From an uncultured virus (IMG/VR IMGVR_UViG_3300017917_005385) (lineage: Duplodnaviria > Heunggongvirae > Uroviricota > Caudoviricetes): a stretch of DNA of 64,000 nt. The first letter of the stretch is position 1. The number at the start of each line of letters is the position of its first letter. The notes under the pieces are model-generated. The model was not told the DNA's origin. It saw nothing but the letters and a program-made list of their open reading frames with translations, and did no database searches. The translations under genes and the position numbers were made by a program. Below are positions 5,080-47,238 of the stretch, piece after piece. The stretch is from IMG/VR virus record IMGVR_UViG_3300017917_005385; one strand, written 5' to 3'.

Positions 5080-5651
5080 TGTTATCTTACCAAGATATTT
5101 TAAATCTTATTAAAGAATCTGATTTCACACTTGTTGGTTATACCTTCAAGGATGAAAGAATTAAAGATGAATTACTTTCTAATTTTAACTATGTTGAGAT
5201 TGAAAAAGTCAATTCGTCTTTTTCTTTTAAATCATTTTTAAGAGACCTTAAACTAGAATCTTTATTAGAAAATAAGTCTGTAAAAAATCCAGAGTATATT
5301 CTTTTAGATATTAATAATATAAGATTTGAAGAAAAGGATAGTTTAGGTGGTAGACAAAGAGTTATTAGAAGTTTTGTTGAAAATCTTAGAAGTCAATTAT
5401 ATACAGATTATTCTGAATTTCCTGGAAGTTCTCAATTTAAAGTTATTCTAACATCTTCTTTATATAGAAGTGGTGTAAATTCTAATAATGATGGTATTAA
5501 TAATTTCAGTGGGGGAAGTGGTCCAATTTATTCTTCTGATTTAGCTTTGACTATAATTGATAATAAGATTACAATAATCAAGAATAGATTTGGCAACAAT
5601 GGTGATGAAATAGTATATAAATTTCAAGAAAATTTAACTACATTTGCATAA
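5079..5651 (+). CDS. hypothetical protein, C-terminus weakly like DnaB/RecA-fold helicase end
   Basis: SDLAL...IIKNRFG; no Walker A motif visible. Confidence 0.5.
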   Translation: MLSYQDILNLIKESDFTLVGYTFKDERIKDELLSNFNYVEIEKVNSSFSFKSFLRDLKLESLLENKSVKNPEYILLDINNIRFEEKDSLGGRQRVIRSFVENLRSQLYTDYSEFPGSSQFKVILTSSLYRSGVNSNNDGINNFSGGSGPIYSSDLALTIIDNKITIIKNRFGNNGDEIVYKFQENLTTFA

Positions 5652-6085
5652 TGAAAATTACAACAAATAGAAAAGCATATTACGAGTATTTTGTGTTGGA
5701 AGAATTCAACGCAGGAATTATGCTATTAGGTAGTGAAGTTAAATCTATTCGTGATGGTAACGTAACCATTACAGACTGTTTTGCTTATATTTCAAATGGT
5801 GAAATTTTCGTAAAGAATATGAAAGTTGCTAAATACAAACAAACTCATATTTTTGAAAAGCATGATGAAAATCGTGATAAAAAAATTCTTCTTAATAGAA
5901 AAGAGATAGATAAAATAGAAAAACTTTTACAAGATAAAGGTACAACTATGGTTCCTTTAGAAATATTTACCTCACATAATAGAATCAAAGTTAAGATTGG
6001 TGTTGTAAAAGGCAAGAAGCTATACGATAAAAGAGAAACTATTAAAAAGAGAGATATCGAAAGAGAAATCCGCCGTAGCGTCTAA
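5651..6085 (+). CDS. smpB: SsrA-binding protein SmpB
   Basis: NRKAYYEY..AGIMLLGSEVKSIR...GKKLYDKRE. Confidence 0.95.
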   Translation: MKITTNRKAYYEYFVLEEFNAGIMLLGSEVKSIRDGNVTITDCFAYISNGEIFVKNMKVAKYKQTHIFEKHDENRDKKILLNRKEIDKIEKLLQDKGTTMVPLEIFTSHNRIKVKIGVVKGKKLYDKRETIKKRDIEREIRRSV

Positions 6086-8071: not shown

Positions 8072-8134
8072 ATCATATATATTAAAAATTATTTGGTAAA
8101 ATAAAACTTTATTACTACTTTTGTATAAGAATTA

Positions 8135-9529: not shown

Positions 9530-9675
9530 TATTTGGTGAATTAAAAAAGACACCGTATATTTGTATAACAAAACAAGAAAATAAAAAAAATTCATATAAA
9601 ATTTGGTAAATTTAAAACTTTTTACTAATTTTGTATAAAATAAATCAAAAGAGACAAAAACTTTTTAATATATAA
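9530..9675 (+). promoter_or_regulatory. tandem Bacteroidota-type promoters plus AATATATA motif upstream of tRNA array 1
   Basis: TTTG...TATATTTG (9532-9563), TTTG...TAATTTTG (9602-9633), TTTTTAATATATA; near copies at 33084-33260 and 43808-43880. Confidence 0.75.
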
Positions 9676-9679
9676 ACAA

Positions 9680-9778
9680 ATGAGAACATTTAATACACAT
9701 AAACATTTTAGTAAATCGAATAAGTGGTTTAGCAACCAGTTCGGTACTGAAAGTGTATTGCTCTCAAATAAGATGTAA
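9680..9778 (+). CDS. leader peptide 1 (His/Phe/Lys/Trp): MRTFNTHKHFSKSNKWFSNQFGTESVLLSNKM
   Basis: Short ORF between promoter and terminator; H/F/K/W codons match the downstream tRNAs. Confidence 0.8.
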   Translation: MRTFNTHKHFSKSNKWFSNQFGTESVLLSNKM

Positions 9779-9805
9779 CAAATCTATTTATACAAGACAA
9801 TATTC

Positions 9806-9846
9806 AAAAGTCCGAACTTAACAAAAAGTTCGGACTTTTTTGTTTT
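9806..9846 (+). terminator. attenuator terminator 1
   Basis: AAAAGTCCGAACTT/AAGTTCGGACTTTT stem plus U tract; leader AGTTCGG (9738-9744) complements the 5' arm. Confidence 0.88.
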
Positions 9847-9850
9847 ATAT

Positions 9851-9936
9851 GGTGTCGTTATTGTTAACGGAGAGTCGCAAGACGAGCATCTGGCTCTGTG
9901 AAAGCCAGGGTACGGGTTCGAATCCCGTACGACACC
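9851..9936 (+). tRNA. tRNA-His(GTG), G-1 encoded, hairpin insertion in D-loop
   Basis: Anticodon loop ctGTGaa; C73; TTCGAAT T-loop. Confidence 0.75.
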
Positions 9937-10518: not shown

Positions 10519-10605
10519 GATTCTGTCGCTTAGTGGCTATAGCAACTGGCTTTTAACCAGTAGAGATAATGTTCTCAACCGTGGGTTCGAGTCCCACCAG
10601 GATCA
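10519..10605 (+). tRNA. tRNA-Lys(TTT), long variable arm
   Basis: actgg-ctTTTaa-ccagt; gaga/tctc variable stem. Confidence 0.8.
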
Positions 10606-10611
10606 CAAAAC

Positions 10612-10695
10612 ACTCCTGTCGCTCAGAGGCCGAGAGCAACTGGCTTTTAACCAGTAGACGAAAGTCCATCGTAGGTTCGAATCCTACCAGGGGTA
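10612..10695 (+). tRNA. tRNA-Lys(TTT), long variable arm
   Basis: actgg-ctTTTaa-ccagt; gac-gaaa-gtc variable stem. Confidence 0.8.
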
Positions 10696-10700
10696 CAAAT

Positions 10701-10785
10701 GACTCCGTTTCCGTAGAGGCCGAACGGTTCTGACTCTTAATCAGATGACGAAAGTCCACCGTGGGTTCGAATCCCACCGGGGTCA
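10701..10785 (+). tRNA. tRNA-Lys(CTT), long variable arm
   Basis: tctga-ctCTTaa-tcaga; gac-gaaa-gtc variable stem. Confidence 0.8.
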
Positions 10786-10877
10786 CAAATTGAAACTAAA
10801 AACTAAAAAGTAATTTTTTAGATAATTTTATAGTTTTTAGTTTTAATATATACATGAAATAAAATATATTTTTGTGT

Positions 10878-11420
10878 ATGAAAGAAGAAATAATTAAACT
10901 AATAAATGAGGGTTTTACATATGATGATATTACTAAAAAATTAGGTTGTTCTAAAAGTACAATATCTTATCATTGTAATAAATTAAATTTAAAAAGTAAA
11001 AGTAAAAATATAGATGTAAATAGTGAACTTGTAAATAAAATTAACGAATTGTATAAATGTGGAAATAGCTCTTATACAATATCAAAAATTTTAGGAATTT
11101 CAAAAAGTACAGCTCTTAAATATATTAGTAAAGAAAATATAAGGACTAAGAAAAAAACTAAAACTAAAAAGGATAAGTCCGAATACATAATGAGATGGAA
11201 GAAAAATCTTAAAAAGAGTTTAGTTGAATACAAAGGATCTAAATGTGAAATTTGTGGATATGATAGATGTATAGAGGCTTTAGAATTTCATCACTCTGAT
11301 CCAAGTAAAAAGGATTTTTCAATATCTACAAAATTATTTGGAATTGAAAAAATGAAAAAAGAAGTAGATAAATGTTTACTGTTATGTTCTAATTGCCATA
11401 GAGAAAAACATTATTTATAA
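10878..11420 (+). CDS. HNH homing endonuclease with N-terminal HTH repeats
   Basis: CEICGY...LEFHH...LLCSNCHREKH; two HTH-like segments; lies within the tRNA region. Confidence 0.85.
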   Translation: MKEEIIKLINEGFTYDDITKKLGCSKSTISYHCNKLNLKSKSKNIDVNSELVNKINELYKCGNSSYTISKILGISKSTALKYISKENIRTKKKTKTKKDKSEYIMRWKKNLKKSLVEYKGSKCEICGYDRCIEALEFHHSDPSKKDFSISTKLFGIEKMKKEVDKCLLLCSNCHREKHYL

Positions 11421-11428
11421 TAAAATTA

Positions 11429-11558
11429 GGGGATGTAGCTCAGTGGTAGAGTTTAAAATATCTCTTTTGAGGTTTTACCTTGAAAAAGTGTTGATTAAAA
11501 GAGTTACTTCGTTTGAATTGAAATCAAAAGGTCGTTGGTTCGAATCCAACCATCCCCG
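11429..11558 (+). ncRNA. tRNA-like RNA with a long stem inserted between the D arm and anticodon arm
   Basis: ggggatg/catcccc acceptor, canonical D and T arms, insert pairing ctcttttga/ttaaaagag followed by TTACTTCG. Confidence 0.6.
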
Positions 11559-11639
11559 CTAAAAAAATATTTGTAAATCTCAGAAAAAAGATTTACTTTT
11601 GTAGAAACAAAGAATAAAAAATTAATATATAATAAAGTT

Positions 11640-11717
11640 ATGAAAACAATTATGCTTACATCGAAGTCGTCAAGTAGTCGCTCGTCAAAAACGAGTGAGG
11701 TTCGATCGTATTCATAA
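11640..11717 (+). CDS. leader peptide 2 (Ser/Arg-CGN): MKTIMLTSKSSSSRSSKTSEVRSYS
   Basis: 10 of 25 codons are Ser; Arg codons CGC and CGA; followed by a terminator and Arg-ACG plus four Ser tRNAs. Confidence 0.85.
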   Translation: MKTIMLTSKSSSSRSSKTSEVRSYS

Positions 11718-11742
11718 TAGTCGTATAAATAAGATATTATGT

Positions 11743-11780
11743 AAACCCTTCGAACCAAAAGTTTGAAGGGTTTTTTGTTT
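11743..11780 (+). terminator. attenuator terminator 2
   Basis: AAACCCTTCGAAC/GTTTGAAGGGTTT plus U tract; leader GGTTCGA (11699-11705) complements TCGAACC. Confidence 0.88.
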
Positions 11781-24315: not shown

Positions 24316-24378
24316 ATTTGTATAATAATTGAAAAAGGGACTAAACTTTTTTAATATATACACATACAATAAAAACAT

Positions 24379-24450
24379 TGCGGGGTAGAGCAGAGGTAGC
24401 TCGCAAGGCTCATAACCTTGAGGTCGCAGGTTCGATTCCTGCCCCCGCTA
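24379..24450 (+). tRNA. tRNA-Met(CAT), initiator-like
   Basis: caagg-ctCATaa-ccttg; 1:72 mismatch; fMet-like D arm. Confidence 0.8.
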
Positions 24451-24536
24451 CTAAAAAAATAAAAAAGATTTGGTGAAATGAAAAAGTCTCCATATCTTTG
24501 TAAAAGAAATAAGAAAACAATATAAAACGAATTAAA

Positions 24537-24614
24537 ATGAACACTGTTATGAACATAGCGTATTATTATGAGGGGGAGCGTAGCTCAAACGTCAGACTAA
24601 TGTCTATGTCGTAA
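24537..24614 (+). CDS. leader peptide 3 (Tyr/Glu): MNTVMNIAYYYEGERSSNVRLMSMS
   Basis: TAT TAT TAT GAG GGG GAG; followed by a terminator and Glu/Tyr tRNAs. Confidence 0.85.
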   Translation: MNTVMNIAYYYEGERSSNVRLMSMS

Positions 24615-24636
24615 TGGTTTCATTATGATATTAACT

Positions 24637-24673
24637 AACCCAGTCTGACTTATCAGACTGGGTTTTTTGTTTT
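24637..24673 (+). terminator. attenuator terminator 3
   Basis: AACCCAGTCTGA/TCAGACTGGGTT plus U tract; leader GTCAGACT (24591-24598) complements AGTCTGAC. Confidence 0.9.
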
Positions 24674-25545: not shown

Positions 25546-25628
25546 TGGTAGGTATGCAAGTGGTTAAAGCGATCGGTCTGTAAAACCGCCCTCTTCGGAG
25601 TTCGGGGGTTCAAATCCCTCCCTGCCAA
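25546..25628 (+). tRNA. tRNA-Tyr(GTA)
   Basis: cggt-ctGTAaa-accg; ctc-ttcg-gag variable arm. Confidence 0.85.
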
Positions 25629-25694
25629 CAAATAATAAAAAAAATTAAAAGGGAAGATAAAACTTTTTATATATACTTTAATATAATTAAAACG

Positions 25695-25775
25695 ATGAAA
25701 AATTTAACTAACATATCAACAGCAATAATCGAAGGCGGCGCGGGAGCGAATGTCACTGGCTGGTTTATGTTATAA
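25695..25775 (+). CDS. leader peptide 4 (Ile-ATA/Gly/Ala): MKNLTNISTAIIEGGAGANVTGWFML
   Basis: GCA ATA ATC GAA GGC GGC GCG GGA GCG; followed by a terminator and Ile/Gly/Ala tRNAs. Confidence 0.85.
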   Translation: MKNLTNISTAIIEGGAGANVTGWFML

Positions 25776-25799
25776 TCTTTCATCAAAAGAAGTAAACGG

Positions 25800-25836
25800 A
25801 ACCCAGTCAGTGAAAATTGACTGGGTTTTTTTATTT
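25800..25836 (+). terminator. attenuator terminator 4
   Basis: AACCCAGTCAGT-gaaa-ATTGACTGGGTT plus U tract; leader CACTGGCTGG (25754-25763) pairs with CCAGTCAGTG. Confidence 0.9.
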
Positions 25837-25917
25837 CGGCAGATACCGGTCCAATCTTATACATTGGATATCCGTAGTGGTAAGTTGAAAACGTGGGTTC
25901 GAATCCCACTCTGCCGA
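25837..25917 (+). tRNA. D-arm-less tRNA-like RNA with TAT (Ile) anticodon
   Basis: cggcaga/tctgccg; tccaat-ctTATac-attgga; canonical T arm; no D stem-loop. Confidence 0.6.
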
Positions 25918-25929
25918 CAAAAGATATAA

Positions 25930-26001
25930 GCGGGTATCGTATAAAGGCTATTACTCCAGCCTTCCAAGCTGGAGATGTCGGTTCGATTCCGACTACCCGC
26001 T
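25930..26001 (+). tRNA. tRNA-Gly(TCC)
   Basis: ccagc-ctTCCaa-gctgg; U73. Confidence 0.9.
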
Positions 26002-26045
26002 CAAATGAGAAAACATTAAAACCATCCCACCAGGATGTAAAACTC

Positions 26046-26119
26046 GGTCCTGTAGCTCAATTGGTCAGAGCAACTCGCTCATAACGAGAAGGTTGTCGGT
26101 TCAAGTCCGGCCAGGACCA
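26046..26119 (+). tRNA. tRNA with CAT anticodon, probably Ile2 (TilS substrate)
   Basis: ctcg-ctCATaa-cgag; C4:G69 and C5:G68 pairs; tilS in window; ATA codons in leader 4. Confidence 0.7.
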
Positions 26120-26124
26120 CAAAT

Positions 26125-26207
26125 GCGGGTGTCGTATAACGGTAGGTAATTCGACATTACACCTGGCTTCCAACCAGGAGACGAGGGTTCGACTCCCTTC
26201 ACCCGCT
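26125..26207 (+). tRNA. tRNA-Gly(TCC), expanded D-loop
   Basis: cctgg-ctTCCaa-ccagg; U73. Confidence 0.8.
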
Positions 26208-26214
26208 CAACTAT

Positions 26215-26290
26215 GGGGATGCATGTACCAAGGCTTTGGCGAGTCTGCTTTGCAAGCAAACTGTGGTGGGTTCGATTCCCATCATCTCCA
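26215..26290 (+). tRNA. tRNA-Ala(TGC)
   Basis: ttTGCaa loop; G3:U70. Confidence 0.78.
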
Positions 26291-26601
26291 CAAAATGAGT
26301 ATGACTATATTTAAATATTTAGTAGATGGTAAACTTTACTTCTTGTATAAAGGAGTTAAGGGTTATATTGCTATACCATTTGAACATAGTGGTAGCACAA
26401 TATCAAATCCCGACTTAAAAGAATTTGTACCAGTTGAATTTGGTAGTGGTTCTAATGGATTTGTATAAAAATAAAATTGAGTATGAAAAAGGTATTAACA
26501 GGCGAATTTGAATCAAGTAGAAAGAATTTAAGAAGAGATATAAATAAAAGTGTTTTGACTAAATTAATTAAAAGATTGAAAAGTAAGAGAAAATAAAATA
26601 A

Positions 26602-26676
26602 GCGAAAGTCGTATAGTGGCTATTATATCGCCTTGCCAAGGCGAGGACGGGAGTTCGATTCTCCTCTTTCGCTCCA
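26602..26676 (+). tRNA. tRNA-Gly(GCC), CCA encoded
   Basis: tcgcc-ttGCCaa-ggcga. Confidence 0.9.
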
Positions 26677-26717
26677 CCTGCCGGATGATCCACCGTTGTA
26701 TCACGGTGCCGGCTCCA

Positions 26718-26791
26718 GGGGGATTAGCTCAGCTGGCTAGAGCGTCTGCCTTGCACGCAGAAGGTCAACGGTTCGACTCCGTTATCCTCCA
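26718..26791 (+). tRNA. tRNA-Ala(TGC)
   Basis: tctgc-ctTGCac-gcaga; G3:U70. Confidence 0.92.
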
Positions 26792-26810
26792 CTAAAAAAA
26801 TTAAATTGTT

Positions 26811-27304
26811 ATGAAAAATCAAAGAACTAACAGCTTGGACGCCTAACCAAGAATGAACGAATCGAATTAAGAAAAAAAGAAATAGGTTCAAAATTAGATA
26901 GAAAACTACAAAAGTATTCTAATAGTTTTAATGAAATATTTACTTTCTTTTTGAAATCTTATCGTTCGGGCATTCTTACATTCTGTGGTAGTTCAGTAGA
27001 TATTGATTTTGATGTCTATGGTATAGAAGGAAAAATGACTTTTAGAAAATATGACAATGGTCAATATCAACAAGGTAAACAAATTATAACAAGACATCCT
27101 AATATAGTAAAAGGAGTTATAACTGGTAAAAAAAGTTGGGGCTTGTGGGTTAATCAGTGGTCTGATGGTATAGTAGAAGGAACATTCTCAAAAAGAGAAA
27201 TATTAGAACAATTTGAGAAATTAAATATTATAATACCAGAATCACTACTAAACGATTTTAATAATAGAATAATAAATAAAATGAAGAAAAAATATGGATG
27301 GTAA
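26811..27304 (+). CDS. hypothetical protein with an apparent frameshift near its start
   Basis: ATG ORF at 26811 stops at 26846; the -1 frame is open from 26831 to 27304. Confidence 0.45.
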
Positions 27305-27413: not shown

Positions 27414-28235
27414 ATGAAAACAAAAGACACCTTCGGGGATCGTATGAAAATGTACGAAAACCAAACCTGTGGAATTAGATTAATTCCCAGAATTCCAGTA
27501 ATTGCCCGTCTTGATGGTAAAGGATTCTCTAAATTTACTAAAGGTCTTAAAAGACCGTATGATGAAAGACTATCTAAATTGATGATTGAAACTACTAAGT
27601 ATTTAGTTAAAGAAACTAATGCAAACTGTGGCTATACTCAATCTGATGAAATCACTTTAATGTGGTACACTGATAAGATCGATGCTTCAATTTATTTTGA
27701 TGGTCGTTTATTTAAGATGCTTTCCGATCTTTCGGCTATGGCTTCTGTATTCTTTAATAGAAAACTTAGCGAATATCTTCCAGAAAAGGCTGATAAGATG
27801 CCTAGATTTGATGCTAGAGTTTACAACGTTCCAACTTTAGATGAGGCGATGAATTCATTCCTTTGGAGAGAACAAGATGCAACTAAGAACTCAATTACTA
27901 TGGCGGCTTCTCATTATTACTCTCACAAAGAGTTACACGGAAAGAATGGAAATGAAAAACAAGAAATGCTTTTTCAAAAAGGTGTTAATTGGAATGATTA
28001 CCCAACTTTCTTCAAGAGGGGTACTTATGTACAAAGAAAAAGAGTTTTAACTCCTTTCAGCGCTGAAGAGATTGAAAAACTACCAATTAAACACAATGCT
28101 AGAAAAGATCCTAGTATGTTAATTGAAAGATGGGTTATTGATGTGGTTGAATTACCTAAACTATCAAGTATTGAAAATTCTGTTGAAGTTATTGTTTTTG
28201 GTGAAGAACCTAAATTAAAAAGTCCAGTTATTTAA
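27414..28235 (+). CDS. Thg1-like protein (tRNA-His guanylyltransferase family, 3'-5' polymerase)
   Basis: RLDGKGFSKFT, YTQSDEI, FDAR, WREQDA.KNS. Confidence 0.92.
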   Translation: MKTKDTFGDRMKMYENQTCGIRLIPRIPVIARLDGKGFSKFTKGLKRPYDERLSKLMIETTKYLVKETNANCGYTQSDEITLMWYTDKIDASIYFDGRLFKMLSDLSAMASVFFNRKLSEYLPEKADKMPRFDARVYNVPTLDEAMNSFLWREQDATKNSITMAASHYYSHKELHGKNGNEKQEMLFQKGVNWNDYPTFFKRGTYVQRKRVLTPFSAEEIEKLPIKHNARKDPSMLIERWVIDVVELPKLSSIENSVEVIVFGEEPKLKSPVI

Positions 28236-29510: not shown

Positions 29511-29534
29511 TTATATTTGCTTAAAATAGTAAAT

Positions 29535-30155
29535 ATGATTAAAGTATTAGGTGAGATTCCAAAGTCAGAATTTGGCATTGCTTGTTCAGGTGGTGTTGAT
29601 TCTATGGCTATTCTTGACTTCTTAGTTAAGGGTAAATATAATCCACATGTTCTTTACTTTAATCACAACACCGAACACGGTCACGAAGCTGAAAAGTTTA
29701 TCACAGACTACTGCAATCAAAAAAGTCTTAAATTGACTATTGGTAGGACTGATTTAAAACCTGAGACTAATAAAGAAAAAATCTGGTCTGATTTAAGGTA
29801 TAATTTTTTTTCAAAGTTTGATTTTCCTATTATTACTTGTCACCATTTAGACGATTGTGTAGAAACTTATTTGTTTTCTTGTTTAAGGGGATTTCAATCA
29901 GTTATTCCTTATTCAAAAGGAAATGTTATTAGACCATTTTTATTAAATGAGAAATCTGAATTTGAAAAGTGGTGTAAACAAAAATCTGTACCTTTTATTC
30001 AAGACTATTCAAATGATTGTCTAGATTATTCAAGAAATAGAATTAGACATAAAATTGTACCAGAATCTTTACTTGTAAATCCAGGACTTAAAACTGTGGT
30101 TAGAAAAATGATTAAAATTCAAATTTATAATCAAGTTCAAAATTATTCTTATTAA
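29535..30155 (+). CDS. tilS: tRNA(Ile)-lysidine synthetase, short form (PP-loop domain only)
   Basis: SGGVDS, RY.FF, HHLDDCVET, IRPFL, D.SN....SRNRIRH. Confidence 0.88.
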   Translation: MIKVLGEIPKSEFGIACSGGVDSMAILDFLVKGKYNPHVLYFNHNTEHGHEAEKFITDYCNQKSLKLTIGRTDLKPETNKEKIWSDLRYNFFSKFDFPIITCHHLDDCVETYLFSCLRGFQSVIPYSKGNVIRPFLLNEKSEFEKWCKQKSVPFIQDYSNDCLDYSRNRIRHKIVPESLLVNPGLKTVVRKMIKIQIYNQVQNYSY

Positions 30156-33069: not shown

Positions 33070-33263
33070 AATATTTTAGAAAGTATTTGGTGAATTAAAA
33101 AACACACCGTATATTTGTAAAACAATTGAGAGAGGCAACGATTTAGATACAAATTTCAATTTTTTTTACAAATTTTAGAAAAAAATTAGGCAAACTTAAA
33201 ACTTTTATCTATATTTGTATAAAATAAGTCAAAAGGAACAAAAACTTTTTAATATATACAACA

Positions 33264-33374
33264 ATGAAAACAATGAATTTAAATATGAATCTTAATCTAA
33301 CAGTGGTGAATACGTTATGTATTAGACCAGTGGAGGGTTTTGCCATATCTAAAAATTTGTTTTCAGTCAACTAA
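33264..33374 (+). CDS. leader peptide 5: MKTMNLNMNLNLTVVNTLCIRPVEGFAISKNLFSVN
   Basis: Codons 3-21 use only T, M, N, L, V, C, I and R(AGA), the isotypes of the downstream array. Confidence 0.85.
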   Translation: MKTMNLNMNLNLTVVNTLCIRPVEGFAISKNLFSVN

Positions 33375-33402
33375 TGTAAGACAAATAAACTAAAGATAAG
33401 TG

Positions 33403-33434
33403 AAACCCTCAGACAAAAATCTGAGGGTTTTTTT
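33403..33434 (+). terminator. attenuator terminator 5
   Basis: AAACCCTCAGA/TCTGAGGGTTT plus U tract; leader GAGGGTTT (33333-33340) complements AAACCCTC. Confidence 0.9.
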
Positions 33435-33582: not shown

Positions 33583-33667
33583 TGGTAGGTACCCGAGCGG
33601 TATTCAGGGACTAGTCTGATACACTAGGTGAGAAATCACGACATGGGTTCAAATCCCATCCTACCAA
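33583..33667 (+). tRNA. tRNA-Ile(GAT), long variable arm
   Basis: ctagt-ctGATac-actag; gtga/tcac variable stem. Confidence 0.78.
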
Positions 33668-33673
33668 CAACAT

Positions 33674-34006: not shown

Positions 34007-34094
34007 TGGCAGGTAGCCTAGTGGTTCAGGCACCAGACTGTTAATCTGAGAGAAGAAATTCTCAACGTGGGTTCGAATCCCACCCTGTCAGCCA
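34007..34094 (+). tRNA. tRNA-Asn(GTT), long variable arm, CCA encoded
   Basis: caga-ctGTTaa-tctg; gagaa-gaaa-ttctc. Confidence 0.78.
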
Positions 34095-34723: not shown

Positions 34724-34807
34724 GCCGATGTGGCTCAGTGGCGACAGCACTGGTTTTGTAAACCAGAGACGAATAGTCCAACGGGGGTTCGAGTCCCTCC
34801 ATCGGCT
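34724..34807 (+). tRNA. tRNA-Thr(TGT), long variable arm
   Basis: ctggt-ttTGTaa-accag; gac-gaata-gtc. Confidence 0.8.
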
Positions 34808-34822
34808 CAAAATAAATCACCT

Positions 34823-35662: not shown

Positions 35663-36231
35663 TTAGGAGTATAATCATCATATTGGTCCAAGAACTTAAA
35701 ATCTTCTTTTTTAAGTTTCATTCCTGAGAACTTATTCAGGAAATTTACAAATGATTCTAGAGAGTCATCTACTAAACCAAATACGGTATTACTTGGATCA
35801 AATTTAGAGTGGTAGGATGTATATTCTACCACTTTTATTTTATCTGGTGATTCAATTGTAAATTCACAAGCCATAAATTCACCATATGTTATATCAATAT
35901 CTAATATTATTTTATTATCAACTTTAGCAAAGTGTATATCAAATTCTAAAGTATCAGGTTCACCCCAAATCTCTCCTTGCTCTTCACTATCTAAAGGTGT
36001 TGACGCATATGTTATCTGAACCATGTCAGAGTGTAGCATTATATTATCTCTTTTGAATTTAAATAGTTTGCCACCATTATTTATTGTTAAGTACTCAGGC
36101 AATTCATTTTCCCACTTCTTATCATATATAGTTCTATTATGGTTGGTTTTAACTTTGATATTTGGCTTAATAGTACCATCAGAAGCAATTCTAGCTTCTA
36201 TATCTTCGTTAAATCTTTTTAAGTATTTCAT
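35659..36231 (-). CDS. hypothetical protein (MKYLKRFNE N-terminus)
   Basis: ORF with AATATATA upstream. Confidence 0.65.
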   Translation of the reverse strand: MKYLKRFNEDIEARIASDGTIKPNIKVKTNHNRTIYDKKWENELPEYLTINNGGKLFKFKRDNIMLHSDMVQITYASTPLDSEEQGEIWGEPDTLEFDIHFAKVDNKIILDIDITYGEFMACEFTIESPDKIKVVEYTSYHSKFDPSNTVFGLVDDSLESFVNFLNKFSGMKLKKEDFKFLDQYDDYTPN

Positions 36232-36291
36232 AATGTATATATTTGTTTTTTCAAATCTTTTTAGTTAGATTTGTAATCTAAAAAAAATTAT

Positions 36292-36429
36292 ATGCTAGGA
36301 GTCTGTACTAGATTAGAAGAAAAAACAGGAATTGATAAGTTTTGGTTTAGATTATTGTTTGTTATCTGGTTCTTTAATACTGGATTTGCATTGCTTTGGT
36401 ATTTTATTATATCATTGATAATCGACTAA
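36292..36429 (+). CDS. PspC-domain small membrane protein (45 aa, not in the ORF track)
   Basis: MLGVCTRLEEKTGIDKFWFRLLFVI fits the PspC GVCxGLA..GID...VRL pattern. Confidence 0.6.
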   Translation: MLGVCTRLEEKTGIDKFWFRLLFVIWFFNTGFALLWYFIISLIID

Positions 36430-36472
36430 AATAAAATTTTGAAATTAATCACATTTTTATTAAATTTGTAAA

Positions 36473-37936
36473 ATGAAAAATATAGTAACAAGAATTGCAC
36501 CTTCTCCAACTGGACCGTTTGCACATATTGGTAATGTGAGAACTCTATTGTATAACTACTTTCTTGCTAAAAAGAATGGTGGTAAATTCTATGTTCGTTT
36601 GGAAGATACCGATCGTGATAGATATAATGCCTCGTTTTTAACATACTTTAAAGATATGTGTGATTGGCTTGGTATAGTACCTGATGGTTCTTATTGGAAC
36701 CCTGATCCATCTATTGGCTCATTCACTCAATCAACAAGAGATTATTCAGATAAGGTTAAATTCCTTTTAGATAAAGGTTTGGCTTACTATGCCTTTGATA
36801 CTAAGGATGATTTAGACGCACTAAAGGCTAAAGGTCTAAAGTATGACTCAACAACTCGCATGTCTATGAATAACTCATTGACTAATCCATCCACTGATAT
36901 TATGTTACAAAGTGGTGTTCCTTATGTAATTAGATTTGCTGTTCCAGCTGACTTAGATGTAACTTTCACTGATGCTATTTTAGGTGATATCACAATCAAC
37001 ACAAATACTTTAGATGATAAAGTTTTAATTAAGTCAAATGGAATTGGCTCATATCATCTTTGTAATGTTTGTGACGATCATGATATGGGTGTTACTCACG
37101 TTCTTAGAGGTAACGAGTGGGTAAACTCTACTCCTTTCCACGTTATTCTTTATAAGGCTTTTGGTTGGGATGTTCCTACATTTGCTCACTTACCTTTAAT
37201 TATGAATCCAGATGGTAAAGGTAAGTTGTCTAAGAGAACTGCTATGAAGTATGGTATTCCTATCGCACCACTTGGTTACACAGATGATAATGGTGTTTAT
37301 ACACCAGGTTGGAAAGACTTAGGATATGATCCTAAAGCATTTATGAACTATCTTGCTTTAATTGGTTGGAATCCAGGAGCTGAAGTAGAAATTATGTCTA
37401 TGGATGATATGATTAATTTATTCTCTTTAGATAGAGTTCACAAGTCTGGTGCTCGTTTCGATATGGATAAAGCTAAGTGGATGAACTCTCAATATCTTAA
37501 ATTAACAGATAACAAAGACTTGATGCCTTATGTTGATGTAGTTGACGATAGATATTCTGATGATAAATTAGACATGATTGTCTCTTTGGCTAAAGATAGA
37601 TCTGACTTTAAAACTGACTTGAATAAAATTGTTAAATTATTCTTTGATGTCCCTTCTATCGATGATAGAAGTAAATTAGATGATAACTATACAAAAGTTA
37701 TGTCAGACTTTATCAACAAAATTGATACAATTAACTTTGATGATACAAACTCAATCAAAGACACTATCTCATCAATCTGTAATGATTTAGGTGTTAAGAT
37801 GGGTAAAGTAATGCCTGGTTTAAGAATGGCTTTGGTATCCGGGATTGCTGGACCAGACTTAATGACAACAATGTCAATTCTAGGTAAAGACCAAACAAAA
37901 TTGAGAATTAATAACTCAATTACGGTAATGGCTTAA
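36473..37936 (+). CDS. gltX: glutamate--tRNA ligase
   Basis: RIAPSPTG, HIGN, RLEDTD, THVLRG.EW, KLSKR, anticodon-binding domain. Confidence 0.95.
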   Translation: MKNIVTRIAPSPTGPFAHIGNVRTLLYNYFLAKKNGGKFYVRLEDTDRDRYNASFLTYFKDMCDWLGIVPDGSYWNPDPSIGSFTQSTRDYSDKVKFLLDKGLAYYAFDTKDDLDALKAKGLKYDSTTRMSMNNSLTNPSTDIMLQSGVPYVIRFAVPADLDVTFTDAILGDITINTNTLDDKVLIKSNGIGSYHLCNVCDDHDMGVTHVLRGNEWVNSTPFHVILYKAFGWDVPTFAHLPLIMNPDGKGKLSKRTAMKYGIPIAPLGYTDDNGVYTPGWKDLGYDPKAFMNYLALIGWNPGAEVEIMSMDDMINLFSLDRVHKSGARFDMDKAKWMNSQYLKLTDNKDLMPYVDVVDDRYSDDKLDMIVSLAKDRSDFKTDLNKIVKLFFDVPSIDDRSKLDDNYTKVMSDFINKIDTINFDDTNSIKDTISSICNDLGVKMGKVMPGLRMALVSGIAGPDLMTTMSILGKDQTKLRINNSITVMA

Positions 37937-40250: not shown

Positions 40251-40366
40251 GACTTATATATTAAAAAAGTAATCACACAATATTATTTAAAATAATTCTT
40301 AATAAAATTTGGCAATTGTTAATAAGTATTGTATATTTGTAATAATAAGTCTAAATATAAATAAAG

Positions 40367-43750: not shown

Positions 43751-43885
43751 AATAATATTATTATCTTTGTACTCACAGAAGAAAAATAAATAAAAAATAA
43801 AAAAATATTTGACAAATTAAAACTTTGTTGTATATTTGTATAAAATAAGAACAAAAGGAACAAAAACTTTTTAATATATACTGAA

Positions 43886-43984
43886 ATGAAAAACTTAAAC
43901 TTAAATATTGTTAACCCGCAACCACAAGTTGTAATCGATCAGGATCCTGGTTCGAAAGGGGCTAACTATGTGGTTTTAAGTTAA
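43886..43984 (+). CDS. leader peptide 6 (Pro/Gln/Asp): MKNLNLNIVNPQPQVVIDQDPGSKGANYVVLS
   Basis: PQPQ...DQDP; followed by a terminator, Pro/Asp tRNAs and then the Gln tRNAs. Confidence 0.82.
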   Translation: MKNLNLNIVNPQPQVVIDQDPGSKGANYVVLS

Positions 43985-44005
43985 ACAAGATATTAACTAT
44001 GAAAC

Positions 44006-44045
44006 AAACCCAGTTAGTCGAAAGATTAACTGGGTTTTTTGTTTT
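44006..44045 (+). terminator. attenuator terminator 6
   Basis: AAACCCAGTTAGTC-gaaa-GATTAACTGGGTTT plus U tract; leader GGCTAACT (43960-43967) pairs with AGTTAGTC. Confidence 0.9.
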
Positions 44046-44677: not shown

Positions 44678-44731
44678 CTACTCAAAGATAGGGAGTCCGA
44701 CATTTTTAATATATAAAATAAAAAATGTCGG

Positions 44732-45313
44732 ATGAACTTGAAAGAGGAAATTAAAAATTGTTATAGTGTATCAGATTTTTGTAGATTATTAAATTTATCA
44801 CAAGGTGGTGGTGGATTTTCTAAAGCGAAAAAAATAATACAAGATAACAATCTGGATATATCACATTTTGATAAGGGTTACTTGAAAAGACAAAAGAATC
44901 CTAAAATTGAAAAGGTTTGTCCAGTTTGTGATAAGAAATTTGAAACGGTTACTTGGAGCAATAGAAAAGAAAAAGTTACTTGTTCTAAGTCGTGTGCTAA
45001 CTCTTACTTTAGAAGTGGTGTTGATAACCCAAACTGGAAAGAAGAATCATACAGAACTACTTGTTTTTATTATCACAAAAAAGAATGTATAATATGTGGT
45101 GAGGAAAAAATTGTAGAGGTTCATCATATGGATGAAAATCATATGAATAATAAACCCGAAAATTTAGTACCTTTGTGTCCTACTCATCATCAATATTGGC
45201 ACTCAAGATATAAAGAGGAAATAGAAGATAAAATATATAACTACATAAAAGAATTTAAAATGAGAACAACAACACAATACCAGCAACAACAACAAATTAA
45301 TCCAACGGATTGA
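44732..45313 (+). CDS. HNH homing endonuclease whose C-terminus reads in frame through leader peptide 7
   Basis: CPVC, CSKSC, CIICG...VHH.D.N..NN..ENL..LCP.HH. Confidence 0.85.
   Translation: MNLKEEIKNCYSVSDFCRLLNLSQGGGGFSKAKKIIQDNNLDISHFDKGYLKRQKNPKIEKVCPVCDKKFETVTWSNRKEKVTCSKSCANSYFRSGVDNPNWKEESYRTTCFYYHKKECIICGEEKIVEVHHMDENHMNNKPENLVPLCPTHHQYWHSRYKEEIEDKIYNYIKEFKMRTTTQYQQQQQINPTD
45260..45313 (+). CDS. leader peptide 7 (Gln): MRTTTQYQQQQQINPTD
   Basis: Own ATG after AATATATA (45232-45239); 6 Gln codons; terminator, three tRNA-Gln and glnS downstream. Confidence 0.85.
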   Translation: MRTTTQYQQQQQINPTD

Positions 45314-45338
45314 TAACGGTATTGTATTGTCAAAATTC

Positions 45339-45375
45339 AAACCCGAATCAATTCAAATTGGTTCGGGTTTTTTTT
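45339..45375 (+). terminator. attenuator terminator 7
   Basis: AAACCCGAATCAAT/ATTGGTTCGGGTTT plus U tract; ATTGAT..CGG around the leader stop complements the 5' arm. Confidence 0.88.
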
Positions 45376-45633: not shown

Positions 45634-47238
45634 ATGAATTTCATTGAAGAAAAAATATTAGATAAAGGTAATCTTGATAAATTAACTTTAAGATTCCCAC
45701 CAGAGCCAAATGGTTATTTACATATTGGTCACGCTAAATCCATTATCTTAAATTTTGGATTGGCTGAAAAATATAATAGACCTTGTAACTTGAGATTTGA
45801 TGATACAAATCCAACTACTGAAGATACACATTTTGTTGAATCTATAATAAAAGATATAGAATGGTTAGGCTACAAGCCTGCTAATATTTTCTATACATCT
45901 GATTACTTTGAATTTATTTACAAATGTGCTGTTACTTTAATTAAGAAAGGTCTAGCTTATGTTGATGATTCAACATCTGAAGAAATTGCTAACTTAAAAG
46001 GAACACCCACAGTTGCTGGTAAAGATTCACCATACAAGTCAAGAACTATTGAAGAAAACTTAGATCTATTTAATAGAATGAGATTAGGTGAATTTGTTGA
46101 AGGTTCTAAAATTCTTAGAGCTAACATTGATATGGCTTCTCCTAATATGATTTTAAGAGATCCTGTTATTTATAGAATAATATCTAAGTCACATCATAGA
46201 ACTGGTGATACTTGGAAGATTTATCCAATGTATGATTTTGCTCATCCTTTAAGTGATTATAACGAAGGTATTACTGATTCTTTATGTACTTTAGAATTTG
46301 AAGTTCATAGACCTTTATATATGTGGGTCTTAGAAAATTGTGATTTAGAAAATCCTTTACCAGAAGAAACTGAGTTTGCTCGTTTGAACATTGACTATAC
46401 AGTTATGTCAAAGAGAAAGTTAAAGAGATTAGTTGAAGAATCTTATGTTGATGGTTGGGATGATCCAAGAATGCCTACTATCTCTGGATTAAGAAGAAGA
46501 GGTTATACACCAAGTGCTATTAAAGATTTTTGTGATAGAATTTCTGTTACTAGAAAAGATGGTGTTGTTTCTTATTCTTTACTTGAAGAATGTCTAAGAA
46601 CCGAATTGAATAAGACTGCTCCAAGATTAATGGGTGTCATGGATCCTGTTAAGTTAGTTGTTACTAATTTTGAAGGTGAAGGATATTGTGAAATTGACAA
46701 TAATCCAGAAGATGAAAATGCTGGTAAAAGAAAAGTTTCTTATTGTAATGAATTTTGGATTGAAAAAGAAGATTTCAGAGAAGAAGCCAATAACAAATAT
46801 CACAGATTAAAGTTAGGTGGTGAAGTTAGATTAAAAGGATTGTTTATAGTTAAAGCCAATGAAATAATTAAAGATGAAAACGGTGAAATTATAGAAATCA
46901 GATGTACTTATGACCACGATGCTTGGATTGGTGTTACTGAAAAGAGGGTTAAAGGTACTATTCACTGGGTTTCTGTTAACCACGGAGTTAAGATGAAAGT
47001 AAACGATTATGATAGATTATTTATCAATAGTTCACCAGACAAAGGAGATGAAGATTTTACAACTCATGTCAATCCTAACTCATTAGTTATTAATGATAAT
47101 GCTATCTTTGAGGAAAATGTAAAAGATTGTAAAGTAGGTGTGCCTGTTCAAATGATGAGAAAAGGTTACTATGTTTTAGATAAAGATGGTAAGTCTTGGA
47201 ACAGAACTGTAAGTTTGAAAGAAGGATGGGTAGGTTAA
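45634..47238 (+). CDS. glnS: glutamine--tRNA ligase
   Basis: RFPPEPNGYLHIGHAK, IYPMYDFAH, SLCTLEF, MSKRKL, GWDDPRMPT, KGTIHWVS. Confidence 0.96.
   Translation: MNFIEEKILDKGNLDKLTLRFPPEPNGYLHIGHAKSIILNFGLAEKYNRPCNLRFDDTNPTTEDTHFVESIIKDIEWLGYKPANIFYTSDYFEFIYKCAVTLIKKGLAYVDDSTSEEIANLKGTPTVAGKDSPYKSRTIEENLDLFNRMRLGEFVEGSKILRANIDMASPNMILRDPVIYRIISKSHHRTGDTWKIYPMYDFAHPLSDYNEGITDSLCTLEFEVHRPLYMWVLENCDLENPLPEETEFARLNIDYTVMSKRKLKRLVEESYVDGWDDPRMPTISGLRRRGYTPSAIKDFCDRISVTRKDGVVSYSLLEECLRTELNKTAPRLMGVMDPVKLVVTNFEGEGYCEIDNNPEDENAGKRKVSYCNEFWIEKEDFREEANNKYHRLKLGGEVRLKGLFIVKANEIIKDENGEIIEIRCTYDHDAWIGVTEKRVKGTIHWVSVNHGVKMKVNDYDRLFINSSPDKGDEDFTTHVNPNSLVINDNAIFEENVKDCKVGVPVQMMRKGYYVLDKDGKSWNRTVSLKEGWVG

What the first reader, a model, noticed from the sequence alone, without database searches (positions are those of the whole stretch)
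25695..26791. Module 4: AIIEGGAGA leader before Ile(AUA-reading), Gly and Ala tRNAs
The leader has ATA x2, GGC GGC GCG GGA GCG and GCA. The array has a TAT-anticodon RNA, a CAT tRNA with Ile2-like features, Gly-TCC x2, Gly-GCC and Ala-TGC x2. A 10-nt anti-terminator CACTGGCTGG (one G-U pair) follows. A GC-rich codon run is conspicuous in an AT-rich intergenic region.
Basis: partly seen in the sequence, partly recalled or inferred. Interest (0 to 1): 0.85.

Follow-up and report, generated by a model that had tools for sequence, protein, structure and literature searches.

The report
Leader-peptide attenuator gating phage tRNA genes
A 26-codon mini-gene rich in isoleucine, glycine and alanine codons sits in a switchable transcription stop just before a giant phage's Ile, Gly and Ala tRNA genes, so the phage probably makes these tRNAs only when ribosomes read those codons slowly.

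Summary
It has a promoter-like motif (25662-25676), a 26-codon ORF (25695-25775, MKNLTNISTAIIEGGAGANVTGWFML) and a 10-bp antiterminator (25754-25763 with 25803-25812). A strong intrinsic terminator (25800-25832) ends 4 nt before an array of UAU, Gly-UCC x2, CAU (Ile2-like), Ala-UGC x2 and Gly-GCC tRNAs.

I found 66 distinct homologues in phage and metagenome contigs. All keep the ATG-started ORF, the I/G/A codon block, the terminator and the antiterminator, and the antiterminator shows compensatory changes.

The window holds seven such leader/array modules. The true leader-to-array pairing is the single best of 5040 permutations. Two related ~640-kb phages repeat this (best of 24 and of 120).

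In two contigs the Tyr/Glu and Ile/Gly/Ala tRNAs form one array. Their single leader mixes I, E, A, G and Y codons.

Ribosome-masked folding puts the switch point at the end of the G-G-A-G-A block.

Best reading (about 0.75): classical ribosome-mediated attenuation, here controlling tRNA genes. Nothing is shown experimentally. Five literature searches found no description. Earlier AI notes of this scan report similar elements on other DNA.

The parts
25662..25676 (+). Promoter-like motif ACTTTTTATATATAC, 18 nt before the leader ATG.
   Evidence: The related motif ACTTTTTAATATATA has 8 matches in the window at up to 2 mismatches, against 2.6 expected, and lies before other leaders and some long ORFs. 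A version with up to 2 substitutions lies upstream of 56 of 64 M4 homologues, mostly 17-23 nt from the ATG. Function as a promoter is inferred.
25695..25775 (+). Leader ORF of 26 codons plus TAA: MKNLTNISTAIIEGGAGANVTGWFML.
   Evidence: The aligned ATG is invariant and the frame is open in 66 of 66 homologues. The same span is open in frame +1 in 0 of 66 and in frame +2 in 12 of 66. A at -3 is at least 90% conserved.
25713..25748 (+). Proposed sensing block, codons 7-18: ATA TCA ACA GCA ATA ATC GAA GGC GGC GCG GGA GCG.
   Evidence: Codon readers present in the array: ATA by UAU and CAU(Ile2-like), GGC by GCC, GGA by UCC, GCA and GCG by UGC. GGC and GCG make up only 6% and 4% of Gly and Ala codons in the window's long ORFs. 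In 46 M4-type leaders the Ile codons are ATA 116, ATC 24 and ATT 20, against 37% ATA in ORFs.
25709..25723 (+). Region 1 candidate: UAACAUA pairs with UAUGUUA at 25766-25772, and CAGC pairs with GCUG at 25759-25762.
   Evidence: Present in the full-length MFE structure. 85.3% of cells are paired in 66 homologues, against 25-55% when slid, but covariation does not exceed the shuffles. It is not favoured thermodynamically over 2:3.
25754..25766 (+). Antiterminator strand (region 2): CACTGGCTGG plus TT.
   Evidence: It pairs with 25800-25812. In 66 homologues 83.8% of cells are paired, against 13-41% when slid. 19 cells changed on both sides, against 5.0 +/- 1.8 in shuffles, and 0 of 500 shuffles reach the covariation score. 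In the anchored count, pair x3-y3 is U-A in 45 and A-U in 13; pair x4-y4 is G-C in 17, C-G in 14 and A-U in 3.
25800..25832 (+). Intrinsic terminator: stem AACCCAGTCA / TGACTGGGTT, loop GTGAAAAT, then a U-tract.
   Evidence: Hairpin energy -19.4 kcal/mol. The full leader folds at -40.5 kcal/mol, z = -4.83 against shuffles. The hairpin ends 4 nt before the first tRNA-like gene.
25837..25917 (+). tRNA-like RNA with a UAU anticodon, almost no D arm and a 22-nt insertion before the T arm.
   Evidence: Rfam tRNA 39.6 bits. It folds with acceptor, anticodon and T arms. ARAGORN does not call it. Relatives carry either this form or a canonical tRNA-Ile(UAU) at the same place. 40 of 46 M4-type modules have a UAU-anticodon gene first.
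25930..26002 (+). tRNA-Gly(UCC).
   Evidence: ARAGORN. Rfam 64.1 bits.
26046..26119 (+). tRNA with a CAU anticodon, probably tRNA-Ile2, read as AUA after lysidine modification.
   Evidence: ARAGORN and Rfam, 70.3 bits. C4:G69 and C5:G68 are visible in the sequence; that these are TilS determinants is recalled, not tested. A TilS N-terminal domain is encoded at 29517-30155 (TIGR02432, 115.7 bits against a cutoff of 93.6).
26125..26207 (+). Second tRNA-Gly(UCC)-like gene with an enlarged D region.
   Evidence: Rfam partial tRNA match at 26145-26199, 32 bits. The acceptor stem and anticodon were read from the sequence. ARAGORN does not call it.
26215..26290 (+). tRNA-Ala(UGC)-like gene with G3:U70 and an unusual D region.
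   Evidence: Read from the sequence. Rfam places 26215-26293 in the tRNA/tmRNA clan at 28.5 bits. ARAGORN does not call it.
26602..26676 (+). tRNA-Gly(GCC).
   Evidence: ARAGORN. Rfam 58 bits.
26718..26792 (+). tRNA-Ala(UGC).
   Evidence: ARAGORN. Rfam 68.7 bits.

Best explanation
Module 4 is a ribosome-mediated (leader-peptide) transcription attenuator that gates a phage tRNA array.

Proposed sequence of events:
1. Transcription starts upstream of the leader, either at the conserved promoter-like motif or by read-through from the Tyr/Glu array before it.
2. A ribosome translates the 26-codon leader.
3. If charged tRNA for AUA (Ile), GGC/GGA (Gly) or GCG/GCA (Ala) is scarce, the ribosome lags or stalls in codons 7-17.
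4. Region 2 (25754-25766) then stays free and pairs with the 5' arm of the terminator (25800-25812). RNA polymerase reads on into the UAU, Gly, CAU(Ile2), Gly, Ala, Gly and Ala tRNA genes.
5. If decoding is fast, the ribosome moves onto codons 18-27 and the stop codon and covers region 2. The terminator hairpin forms and the array stays off.

The result is negative feedback on the supply of exactly the tRNAs the leader samples.

Shown: the anatomy, its conservation, the helix covariation, the leader-array match and the in-silico geometry. Inferred: translation of the ORF, stalling, and regulated read-through.
For: 1. Anatomy. Promoter-like motif, ORF, antiterminator and terminator are followed 4 nt later by the tRNAs, so there is no room for a promoter after the terminator.

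2. Conservation. I hold 66 distinct homologues. All have the ORF from an invariant ATG, 20-30 codons long. A 1-nt indel after GGCGCGGG is compensated downstream, so the frame closes again near the antiterminator. The other frames are closed in 66 of 66 (frame +1) and 54 of 66 (frame +2).

3. Antiterminator covariation. 0 of 500 shuffles reach the observed score. 83.8% of cells are paired, against 13-41% when slid. Own partners extend the helix by 3.88 bp, against 3.01 +/- 0.12 for permuted partners (maximum 3.59 in 5000).

4. Leader-array match.
- In the window, 74 of 186 residues are decoded by the leader's own array, the best of 5040 permutations.
- LR745206.1 is the best of 24 and LR756502.1 the best of 120.
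- Over 101 distinct leaders, the mean fraction decoded by the own array is 0.293, against 0.085 for arrays with disjoint sets.

5. Natural swaps.
- L247 and L235 have one leader, MRTIINIEAIGYAYEAGS.., before a single Tyr-Glu-Ile(UAU)-Gly-Ala array.
- A Lys+Tyr array follows MKTVNAYYKQYYYKR...
- M4-type leaders without GGCGCGGG are still rich in I, A and G (L230, L227).

6. Codon level. ATA is 72% of Ile codons in 46 M4-type leaders, against 37% in ORFs. The four leaders before Ile-GAU arrays use ATT 6 times and ATA 2 times.

7. Geometry. With a ribosome mask from A-15 to A+11, the antiterminator probability is 0.92-0.94 with the A site at codons 2-16, 0.82 at codon 17, and at most 0.04 from codon 18 to the stop. 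In 57 of 66 homologues the switch lies within -1 to +3 codons of the invariant GGC.

8. Context. The window is a translation island, with TilS-N, Thg1, GluRS, GlnRS and SmpB.
Against: - There are no expression, ribosome or termination data.
- Most homologues were retrieved with a pattern that fixed GGCGCGGG, CCCAGT and the 3' arm, so those letters are conserved by construction.
- The covariation rests on few independent events; the CAGUCU/AGACUG class looks like one clade.
- The 1:2 helix shows no covariation and loses to 2:3 at equilibrium. With no ribosome the model predicts read-through rather than trp-like super-attenuation.
- In 7 of 66 homologues with longer ORFs, a ribosome at the stop codon would not mask region 2. 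In 2 of 66 the modelled core helix never forms.
- The leader uses GGC and GCG, which are rare in the phage's own genes, and almost never GCC or GCU, although 12 of 46 arrays carry Ala-GGC.
- ATC and GAA in the block are not read by this array.
- The single-module enrichment is modest (P = 0.007).
Confidence: 0.75

Rival explanations
1. The hairpin is an ordinary, constitutively leaky terminator or insulator that ends the upstream Tyr/Glu array transcript. The short ORF is incidental and untranslated.
For: The same type of hairpin ends ordinary genes in the window (17 on the + strand). The Tyr/Glu array before it has no terminator of its own. A 26-codon open frame in AT-rich DNA is not rare by itself.
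Against: The ORF is open in 66 of 66 diverged homologues with compensated indels, while the other frames are closed. Its composition tracks the downstream array in three genomes and in merged or re-sorted arrays. A conserved, covarying antiterminator has no role in a plain terminator. The promoter-like motif lies upstream of the terminator and no space follows it.
Confidence: 0.08
2. The terminator/antiterminator switch is real but is set without translation, for example by a phage or host RNA-binding antiterminator protein, by direct tRNA binding (T-box-like), or by RNA polymerase speed.
For: At equilibrium the antiterminator forms without any ribosome. The GGCGCGGGAGCG and TGGCUG letters are conserved across two reading frames, as an RNA or protein binding site would be.
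Against: No Rfam family other than tRNA reaches its gathering score, and no T-box does. A single-specifier RNA cannot explain multi-amino-acid leaders, nor their change with array content. ORF maintenance and the near-invariant ATG with A at -3 point to translation.
Confidence: 0.12
3. The 26-residue product is itself a functional small peptide, and its resemblance to the array content is secondary.
For: The N-terminal MKNLxNIS and the central GGAGA are conserved.
Against: Downstream of GGCGCGGG the nucleotides are conserved but are read in two different frames, giving ..ANVTGWFML or ..SDCHWLSYVL. ORF ends vary between 20 and 30 codons. Six other leader families in the same genome differ precisely in the residues their arrays decode.
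Confidence: 0.03

Closest known systems
Multivalent leader-peptide transcription attenuators of amino-acid operons (E. coli/Salmonella ilvGMEDA leader with Ile, Leu and Val codons; thr leader with Thr and Ile; also trp, his, leu and pheA). Recalled textbook knowledge.
   Same: A short translated leader enriched in several specific codons. An intrinsic terminator whose 5' arm can instead pair with an upstream segment. Ribosome position decides which hairpin forms. A possible 1:2 pairing.
   Different: The regulated genes are tRNAs, not biosynthetic enzymes. The element is phage-encoded and occurs seven times in one genome with different codon sets. The 1:2 helix is weak and unsupported by covariation, so the default without translation may be read-through. 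The host is probably a Bacteroidota-type bacterium (TAnnTTTG promoters, no Shine-Dalgarno), inferred from motifs only.
pheM leader attenuator of the E. coli pheST (phenylalanyl-tRNA synthetase) operon. Recalled.
   Same: Leader-peptide attenuation applied to the translation apparatus, responding to charged tRNA availability.
   Different: It controls a synthetase, not tRNA genes. It is single-amino-acid and bacterial. In this window only module 7 (Gln leader, Gln tRNAs, then GlnRS at 45634-47238) comes close to it.
T-box riboswitches.
   Same: A terminator/antiterminator decision that reports the state of a specific tRNA.
   Different: T-boxes bind one uncharged tRNA directly through Stem I, a specifier codon and the T-box bulge, without translation. 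No T-box match was found here, and the leaders are multi-amino-acid ORFs.
tRNA arrays of huge (more than 500 kb) uncultured phages, such as records LR745206.1, LR756502.1 and LR756501.1. That these come from a published survey of huge phages is recalled; the paper was not read here.
   Same: The window's nearest relatives in the phage collection are these records. They carry the same modules.
   Different: The large tRNA complements of such phages are known. I found no description of their control by leader peptides (searches; listings only).

Membership tests
Leader-peptide (ribosome-mediated) transcription attenuator | A short ORF with a start codon immediately upstream of the regulated genes, conserved as an ORF. 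| tested here: met
   ATG 25695 to TAA 25775. The ORF is kept in 66 of 66 homologues while the alternative frames are closed (0 of 66 and 12 of 66 open). The ATG is invariant.
Leader-peptide (ribosome-mediated) transcription attenuator | Leader enriched in codons tied to the function of the regulated genes. | tested here: met
   10 of 25 residues are I, G or A, against a background of 0.176 (P = 0.007). The true pairing is the best of 5040, 24 and 120 permutations in three genomes. Merged arrays have merged leaders.
Leader-peptide (ribosome-mediated) transcription attenuator | An intrinsic terminator between the leader and the regulated genes. | tested here: met
   25800-25832, a stem of 10 to 14 bp depending on the scan, plus a U-tract, -19.4 kcal/mol.
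Leader-peptide (ribosome-mediated) transcription attenuator | An alternative antiterminator helix that uses the terminator's 5' arm. | tested here: met
   25754-25763 with 25803-25812, -19.6 kcal/mol. Compensatory changes exceed all 500 shuffles and the slid controls.
Leader-peptide (ribosome-mediated) transcription attenuator | The position of the ribosome on the regulatory codons, as against the stop codon, selects the helix. | tested here: met
   In silico only. The antiterminator probability is 0.92-0.94 for A-site codons 2-16, 0.82 at codon 17 and at most 0.04 for codons 18 to the stop. The switch lies within -1 to +3 codons of the invariant GGC in 57 of 66 homologues; 9 of 66 deviate.
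Leader-peptide (ribosome-mediated) transcription attenuator | An anti-antiterminator (1:2) pairing that gives termination when the leader is not translated. | tested here: inconclusive
   AACAUA with UAUGUU and CAGC with GCUG are complementary in 85.3% of cells, but covariation does not exceed the shuffles. The pairing is not favoured over 2:3.
Leader-peptide (ribosome-mediated) transcription attenuator | Read-through rises when the cognate charged tRNA is limiting. | not testable with these tools
   No RNA data are available. This needs reporter or in-vitro assays.
Leader-peptide (ribosome-mediated) transcription attenuator | The regulated genes are amino-acid biosynthesis, transport or aminoacyl-tRNA synthetase genes (all described cases, as recalled). 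| tested here: not met
   The downstream genes are tRNAs. This is why I file it as a new variant rather than a member of a described operon class.
T-box riboswitch | Stem I with a specifier loop and the conserved T-box antiterminator bulge (Rfam T-box model). | tested here: not met
   No T-box match in the gathering-threshold scan of the window, nor in the E <= 10 scan of 25600-26900.

The most novel reading that the evidence does not exclude
The phage carries a distributed tRNA homeostat. Seven codon-matched leader attenuators together sample all 20 amino acids: F/H/W/K; S/R; Y/E; I/G/A; N/L/M/T/V/I/C/R; D/P; Q. Each switches on only the sub-array, and in the Gln module probably also the GlnRS gene, whose tRNAs are running short. 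This would let a giant phage detect and repair codon-specific decoding failure during infection, for example host tRNA loss or anticodon-nuclease defence. It would be a regulatory logic not described for tRNA genes in any organism.
Probability: 0.5. Interest if true: 0.92.

Novelty: new variant of a known kind. Interest (0 to 1): 0.85.

Why it matters
tRNA genes are usually treated as constitutively or growth-rate controlled. Phage tRNAs are usually explained by codon usage or by escape from host tRNA-cleaving defences. A leader-peptide switch that reads decoding speed and answers by making the very tRNAs it samples would be direct, codon-resolved feedback on translation capacity.

It would explain how giant phages manage complements of 50 or more tRNAs. 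It would give a testable handle on when phage tRNAs are needed. It would also supply compact, programmable tRNA-level sensors.

The 66 homologues and the natural leader/array swaps make the hypothesis testable now, with simple reporter constructs.

Tried and rejected
So there are no expression data and no genome-wide count.
I did not use it, except that its loci went through the automatic module finder.
- The genome-contig scan with the module-4 pattern gave 5 hits. All are false: no leader and 44-67% GC; the one checked with ARAGORN has no tRNA.
- False hits dropped from the other scans: 7 of 13 loci (L005, L006, L008, L009, L012, L016, L017) and 4 of 85 (L026, L096, L097, L100). All are GC-rich and lack a leader.
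- In one search, 9 pattern matches had no ATG in frame with AAC ATA and were set aside. Some are Tyr/Glu-type leaders read in another frame, for example L227.
- My first anchored covariation count used a wrong CTG anchor. One search replaces it.
- I looked for a similar leader before GluRS (36200-36500). None was evident.
- T-box and other Rfam cis-regulators were considered and rejected.
- I considered that GGCGCGGGAGCG forms a small CGC-GGGA-GCG pause hairpin; it appears in the folds. This remains speculation.
- Script errors, and a coordinate slip, were corrected and rerun.
Full report
WHAT THE WINDOW IS. The window is AT-rich DNA, about 30% GC, with 47 ARAGORN tRNA genes and 49 Rfam tRNA matches, all on the + strand. 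Its nearest relatives in the phage collection are uncultured phage records of 635-735 kb: LR745206.1, LR756502.1, LR756501.1 and LR756503.1. No whole genome is held for it. The protein genes between the tRNA blocks form a translation island. They include SmpB, a YqeY-like protein, a sigma-70-type factor, Thg1, a TilS N-terminal domain (TIGR02432, 115.7 bits against a cutoff of 93.6), GluRS and GlnRS.

THE OBSERVATION.
- The ORF runs from ATG 25695 to TAA 25773-25775 and reads MKNLTNISTAIIEGGAGANVTGWFML.
- Its codons 7-18 are ATA TCA ACA GCA ATA ATC GAA GGC GGC GCG GGA GCG.
- CACTGGCTGG (25754-25763) is complementary to CCAGTCAGTG (25803-25812), 10 bp with one G-U. The duplex energy is -19.6 kcal/mol.
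- The terminator hairpin (25800-25827 plus a U-tract to 25832) has -19.4 kcal/mol.
- The first downstream gene starts at 25837, so no promoter fits behind the terminator.

The array holds these genes:
- a UAU-anticodon tRNA-like RNA with almost no D arm (25837-25917; Rfam 39.6 bits);
- Gly-UCC (25930-26002);
- a CAU tRNA (26046-26119);
- a second Gly-UCC-like gene with an enlarged D region (26125-26207; Rfam partial, 32 bits);
- an Ala-UGC-like gene with G3:U70 (26215-26290; read by eye, weak Rfam clan match);
- two small ORFs (26295-26468 and 26483-26596; the first had no Pfam match, the second was not scanned);
- Gly-GCC (26602-26676);
- Ala-UGC (26718-26792).

The CAU tRNA has C4:G69 and C5:G68. 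I recall these as TilS determinants of tRNA-Ile2. The phage's own TilS domain lies 3.4 kb downstream and supports reading it as an AUA decoder.

HOMOLOGUES. Two related huge phages have the same unit at the same place, with leaders MKNLNNISIAVIGNGAGAIREWLSYGI and MKNLHNISVGVIAIGAGSVCLWLNYVS.
- Pattern scans of viral contigs gave 2 of 2 real loci and 6 of 13 real loci.
- A pattern scan of metagenome contigs gave 81 of 85 real loci.
- Together with L001, L002 and the window these make 66 distinct leader-to-terminator sequences, aligned as A1.
- The same pattern finds nothing real in one genome each of 185,579 prokaryote species: 5 hits, all false.

Caveat: the pattern fixed GGCGCGGG, CCCAGT and the 3' arm, so those letters are conserved by construction. 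The ATG, AACATA, the Ile codons, TGGCTG and TTATG were not fixed.

IS THE ORF A GENE?
- The ATG column is invariant and A at -3 is at least 90% conserved.
- All 66 sequences are open from that ATG for 20-30 codons.
- The same span is open in frame +1 in 0 of 66 and in frame +2 in 12 of 66.
- After GGCGCGGG there are two forms that differ by one G. The frame shift is compensated downstream, so the ORF still closes 0-35 nt after the antiterminator.
- The nucleotides TGGCTG and TTATG are thus read in different frames. They behave as RNA elements, while the upstream block behaves as codons.

THE RNA SWITCH. On A1, the antiterminator helix is paired in 83.8% of cells, against 13-41% when the partner is slid by 1-3 columns. 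19 cells changed on both sides, against 5.0 +/- 1.8 in shuffles, and 0 of 500 shuffles reach the covariation score.

An ungapped, anchored count shows the classes directly:
- CAGUCA with UGGCUG, against CAGUCU with AGACUG (pair x3-y3: U-A in 45, A-U in 13);
- the next pair is G-C in 17, C-G in 14 and A-U in 3;
- own partners extend the helix by 3.88 bp, against 3.01 +/- 0.12 for permuted partners (maximum 3.59 of 5000).

These events are few and partly clade-bound, so this is support and not proof.

A second complementarity, AACAUA (codons 6-7) with UAUGUU just 3' of the antiterminator, plus CAGC with GCUG, appears in the full-length MFE structure. It is kept in 85.3% of cells but its covariation does not exceed the shuffles. 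It could be a trp-like 1:2 helix. At equilibrium, however, 2:3 wins.

GEOMETRY. I folded the transcript as it exists just before the 3' arm is made. The letters from A-15 to A+11 around each A-site codon were held unpaired. This footprint is an assumption, taken from recalled ribosome footprint and helicase data.
- The antiterminator probability is 0.92-0.94 with the A site on codons 2-16.
- It is 0.82 on codon 17 (GGA).
- It is at most 0.04 from codon 18 (GCG) to the stop codon.

So the I-I-E-G-G-A-G block ends exactly where a moving ribosome begins to mask region 2. Over the 66 homologues the last permissive codon lies within -1 to +3 codons of the invariant GGC in 57. In 7 with longer ORFs a ribosome at the stop codon would not mask region 2. 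In 2 with a different antiterminator my core helix is not predicted.

THE CODONS MATCH THE ARRAY. The window has seven units of the same build:

| Module | Leader | Downstream array |
|---|---|---|
| 1 | MRTFNTHKHFSKSNKWFSNQ.. | Phe, His, Trp, Lys |
| 2 | ..TSKSSSSRSSKTSEVRSYS | Arg, Ser |
| 3 | ..IAYYYEGE.. | Glu, Tyr |
| 4 | this leader | Ile, Gly, Ala |
| 5 | MKTMNLNMNLNLTVVNTLCIRP.. | Asn, Ile, Arg, Leu, Val, Cys, Thr, Met |
| 6 | ..NPQPQVVIDQDP.. | Asp, Pro |
| 7 | MRTTTQYQQQQQINPTD | Gln x3, followed by GlnRS |

Some anticodons (Ser, Cys, one Arg) I read by eye from Rfam-only hits.
- The true pairing decodes 74 of 186 leader residues and is the single best of 5040 permutations, both raw and z-normalised.
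- The same test gives the best of 24 in LR745206.1 and the best of 120 in LR756502.1.
- An automatic pass over all loci held gave 178 modules and 101 distinct leaders. On average 0.293 of leader residues are decoded by the own array, against 0.085 by arrays with disjoint sets.

NATURAL SWAPS. A scan that did not require GGCGCGGG gave 30 loci and 21 distinct in-frame leaders.
- It found M4-type leaders without that motif that are still rich in I, A and G: MRTINNIAIIAIGKGK.. and MKAVNNISIIGNGAIAGGG.. Both precede tRNAs of this set: Ile-UAU, Gly and Ala behind the first, and Gly-UCC behind the second, whose locus ends there.
- In L247 and L235 the Tyr, Glu, Ile(UAU), Gly and Ala tRNAs form one uninterrupted array behind one terminator. 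The single leader reads ..NIEAIGYAYEAGS.. and mixes both codon sets.
- A Lys+Tyr array follows MKTVNAYYKQYYYKR...

Modules 3 and 4 share the scaffold (AACATA, CCCAGUC terminator) and differ in the codon block.

CODON LEVEL. In 46 M4-type leaders the Ile codons are ATA 116, ATC 24 and ATT 20. Long ORFs of the window use ATA 37%, ATT 54% and ATC 9%. One ATA per leader sits in the conserved AACATA. Without it, ATA is still about 61%. The four leaders before Ile-GAU arrays use ATT 6 times and ATA 2 times.

The Gly and Ala codons are GGC, GGA, GGG, GCG and GCA, and almost never GGT or GCT. GGT and GCT are the phage's preferred codons, at 65% and 61%. This is partly forced by my pattern but is also seen in the unforced leaders. 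I have no firm explanation for it. Wobble-read or rare codons may be the most sensitive reporters. Alternatively, the GC run may form a small pause hairpin (CGC-GGGA-GCG, seen).

MECHANISM AND RIVALS. The best reading is classical ribosome-mediated attenuation, with tRNA genes as the output. Slow decoding of AUA, GGN or GCN keeps the ribosome upstream of region 2, the antiterminator forms and the array is transcribed. Fast decoding lets the ribosome cover region 2 and the terminator forms.

A plain terminator, a translation-independent switch and a functional peptide are each less consistent with three findings: the ORF is maintained, the leaders are multi-amino-acid and track their arrays, and the downstream nucleotides are conserved across two frames. 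No T-box or other Rfam cis-regulator matches. None of this has been measured.

WHAT IS KNOWN. Five full-text searches found no description of leader-peptide control of tRNA genes. I saw only listings and abstract starts and read no paper. Subscription journals and supplements are not covered by that library.

Earlier AI notes of this scan report similar codon-matched leaders before phage tRNA arrays: 71 notes in at least 66 other genomes. They also found no publication. Those notes are not independent evidence. No note exists for this genome or for look-alike sequence.

I therefore rate it a new variant of a known kind. The mechanism is a textbook one. The target, the modular seven-fold layout covering all 20 amino acids, and the phage setting are new.

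Noticed in passing
window 9680-9841, 11640-11776, 24537-24668, 33264-33434, 43886-44040, 45260-45375: Six further leader, terminator and tRNA-array modules of the same build. Their leaders are enriched for F/H/K/W, S/R, Y/E, N/L/M/T/V/I/C/R, D/P(/Q) and Q. With module 4 they cover all 20 amino acids.
   Followed up: partly
window 44732-45313 and 45634-47238: The Gln-rich leader (MRTTTQYQQQQQINPTD, ATG 45260) is in frame with, and forms the tail of, an HNH-endonuclease-like ORF. The three Gln tRNAs behind its terminator are followed 29 nt later by a GlnRS gene. That attenuator may therefore also gate a synthetase.
   Followed up: partly
window 25837-25917, 26125-26207, 26215-26290, 9850-9930; also 10519-10786, 33583-33668, 34007-34094, 34724-34808: Many non-canonical tRNA-like genes. 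They include a UAU RNA with almost no D arm and a D-loop-like insertion before the T arm, conserved with compensatory anticodon-stem changes in relatives. They also include tRNAs with about 27-30-nt D regions, and 83-88-nt Lys, Asn, Ile and Thr tRNAs with long variable regions. The first gene after several terminators is of this odd kind.
   Followed up: partly
window 29517-30155, 27414-28235, 5651-6085, 36473-37936: The phage encodes a stand-alone TilS N-terminal (lysidine synthetase) domain, Thg1 (tRNA-His guanylyltransferase), SmpB and GluRS. This is a dense translation island around the tRNA modules.
   Followed up: partly
window 8076-8090(-), 9660-9674, 24346-24360, 33244-33258, 40255-40269(-), 43866-43880, 44701-44715: The motif ACTTTTTAATATATA recurs (8 matches against 2.6 expected). 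It lies 4-5 nt before some leader ATGs and about 5 nt before two long minus-strand ORFs (starts 8071 and 40250). It also lies before a lone CAU tRNA (24379-24451) that has no leader. It may be a phage-specific promoter giving nearly leaderless mRNAs. Bacteroidota-type TTTG...TAnnTTTG motifs lie further upstream of several leaders.
   Followed up: partly
window 26295-26468 and 26483-26596: Two small ORFs (57 and 37 codons) are inserted inside the module-4 array, between the Ala-like tRNA and Gly-GCC. The first has no Pfam match; the second was not scanned. The corresponding gap varies from about 0.3 to 2.4 kb in relatives.
   Followed up: no
window 10872-11420 and 11429-11560: An HTH/HNH-type ORF sits between arrays. 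It is followed by a tRNA-like gene that appears to be interrupted by about 60 nt (Rfam 30 bits for the 3' part only).
   Followed up: no
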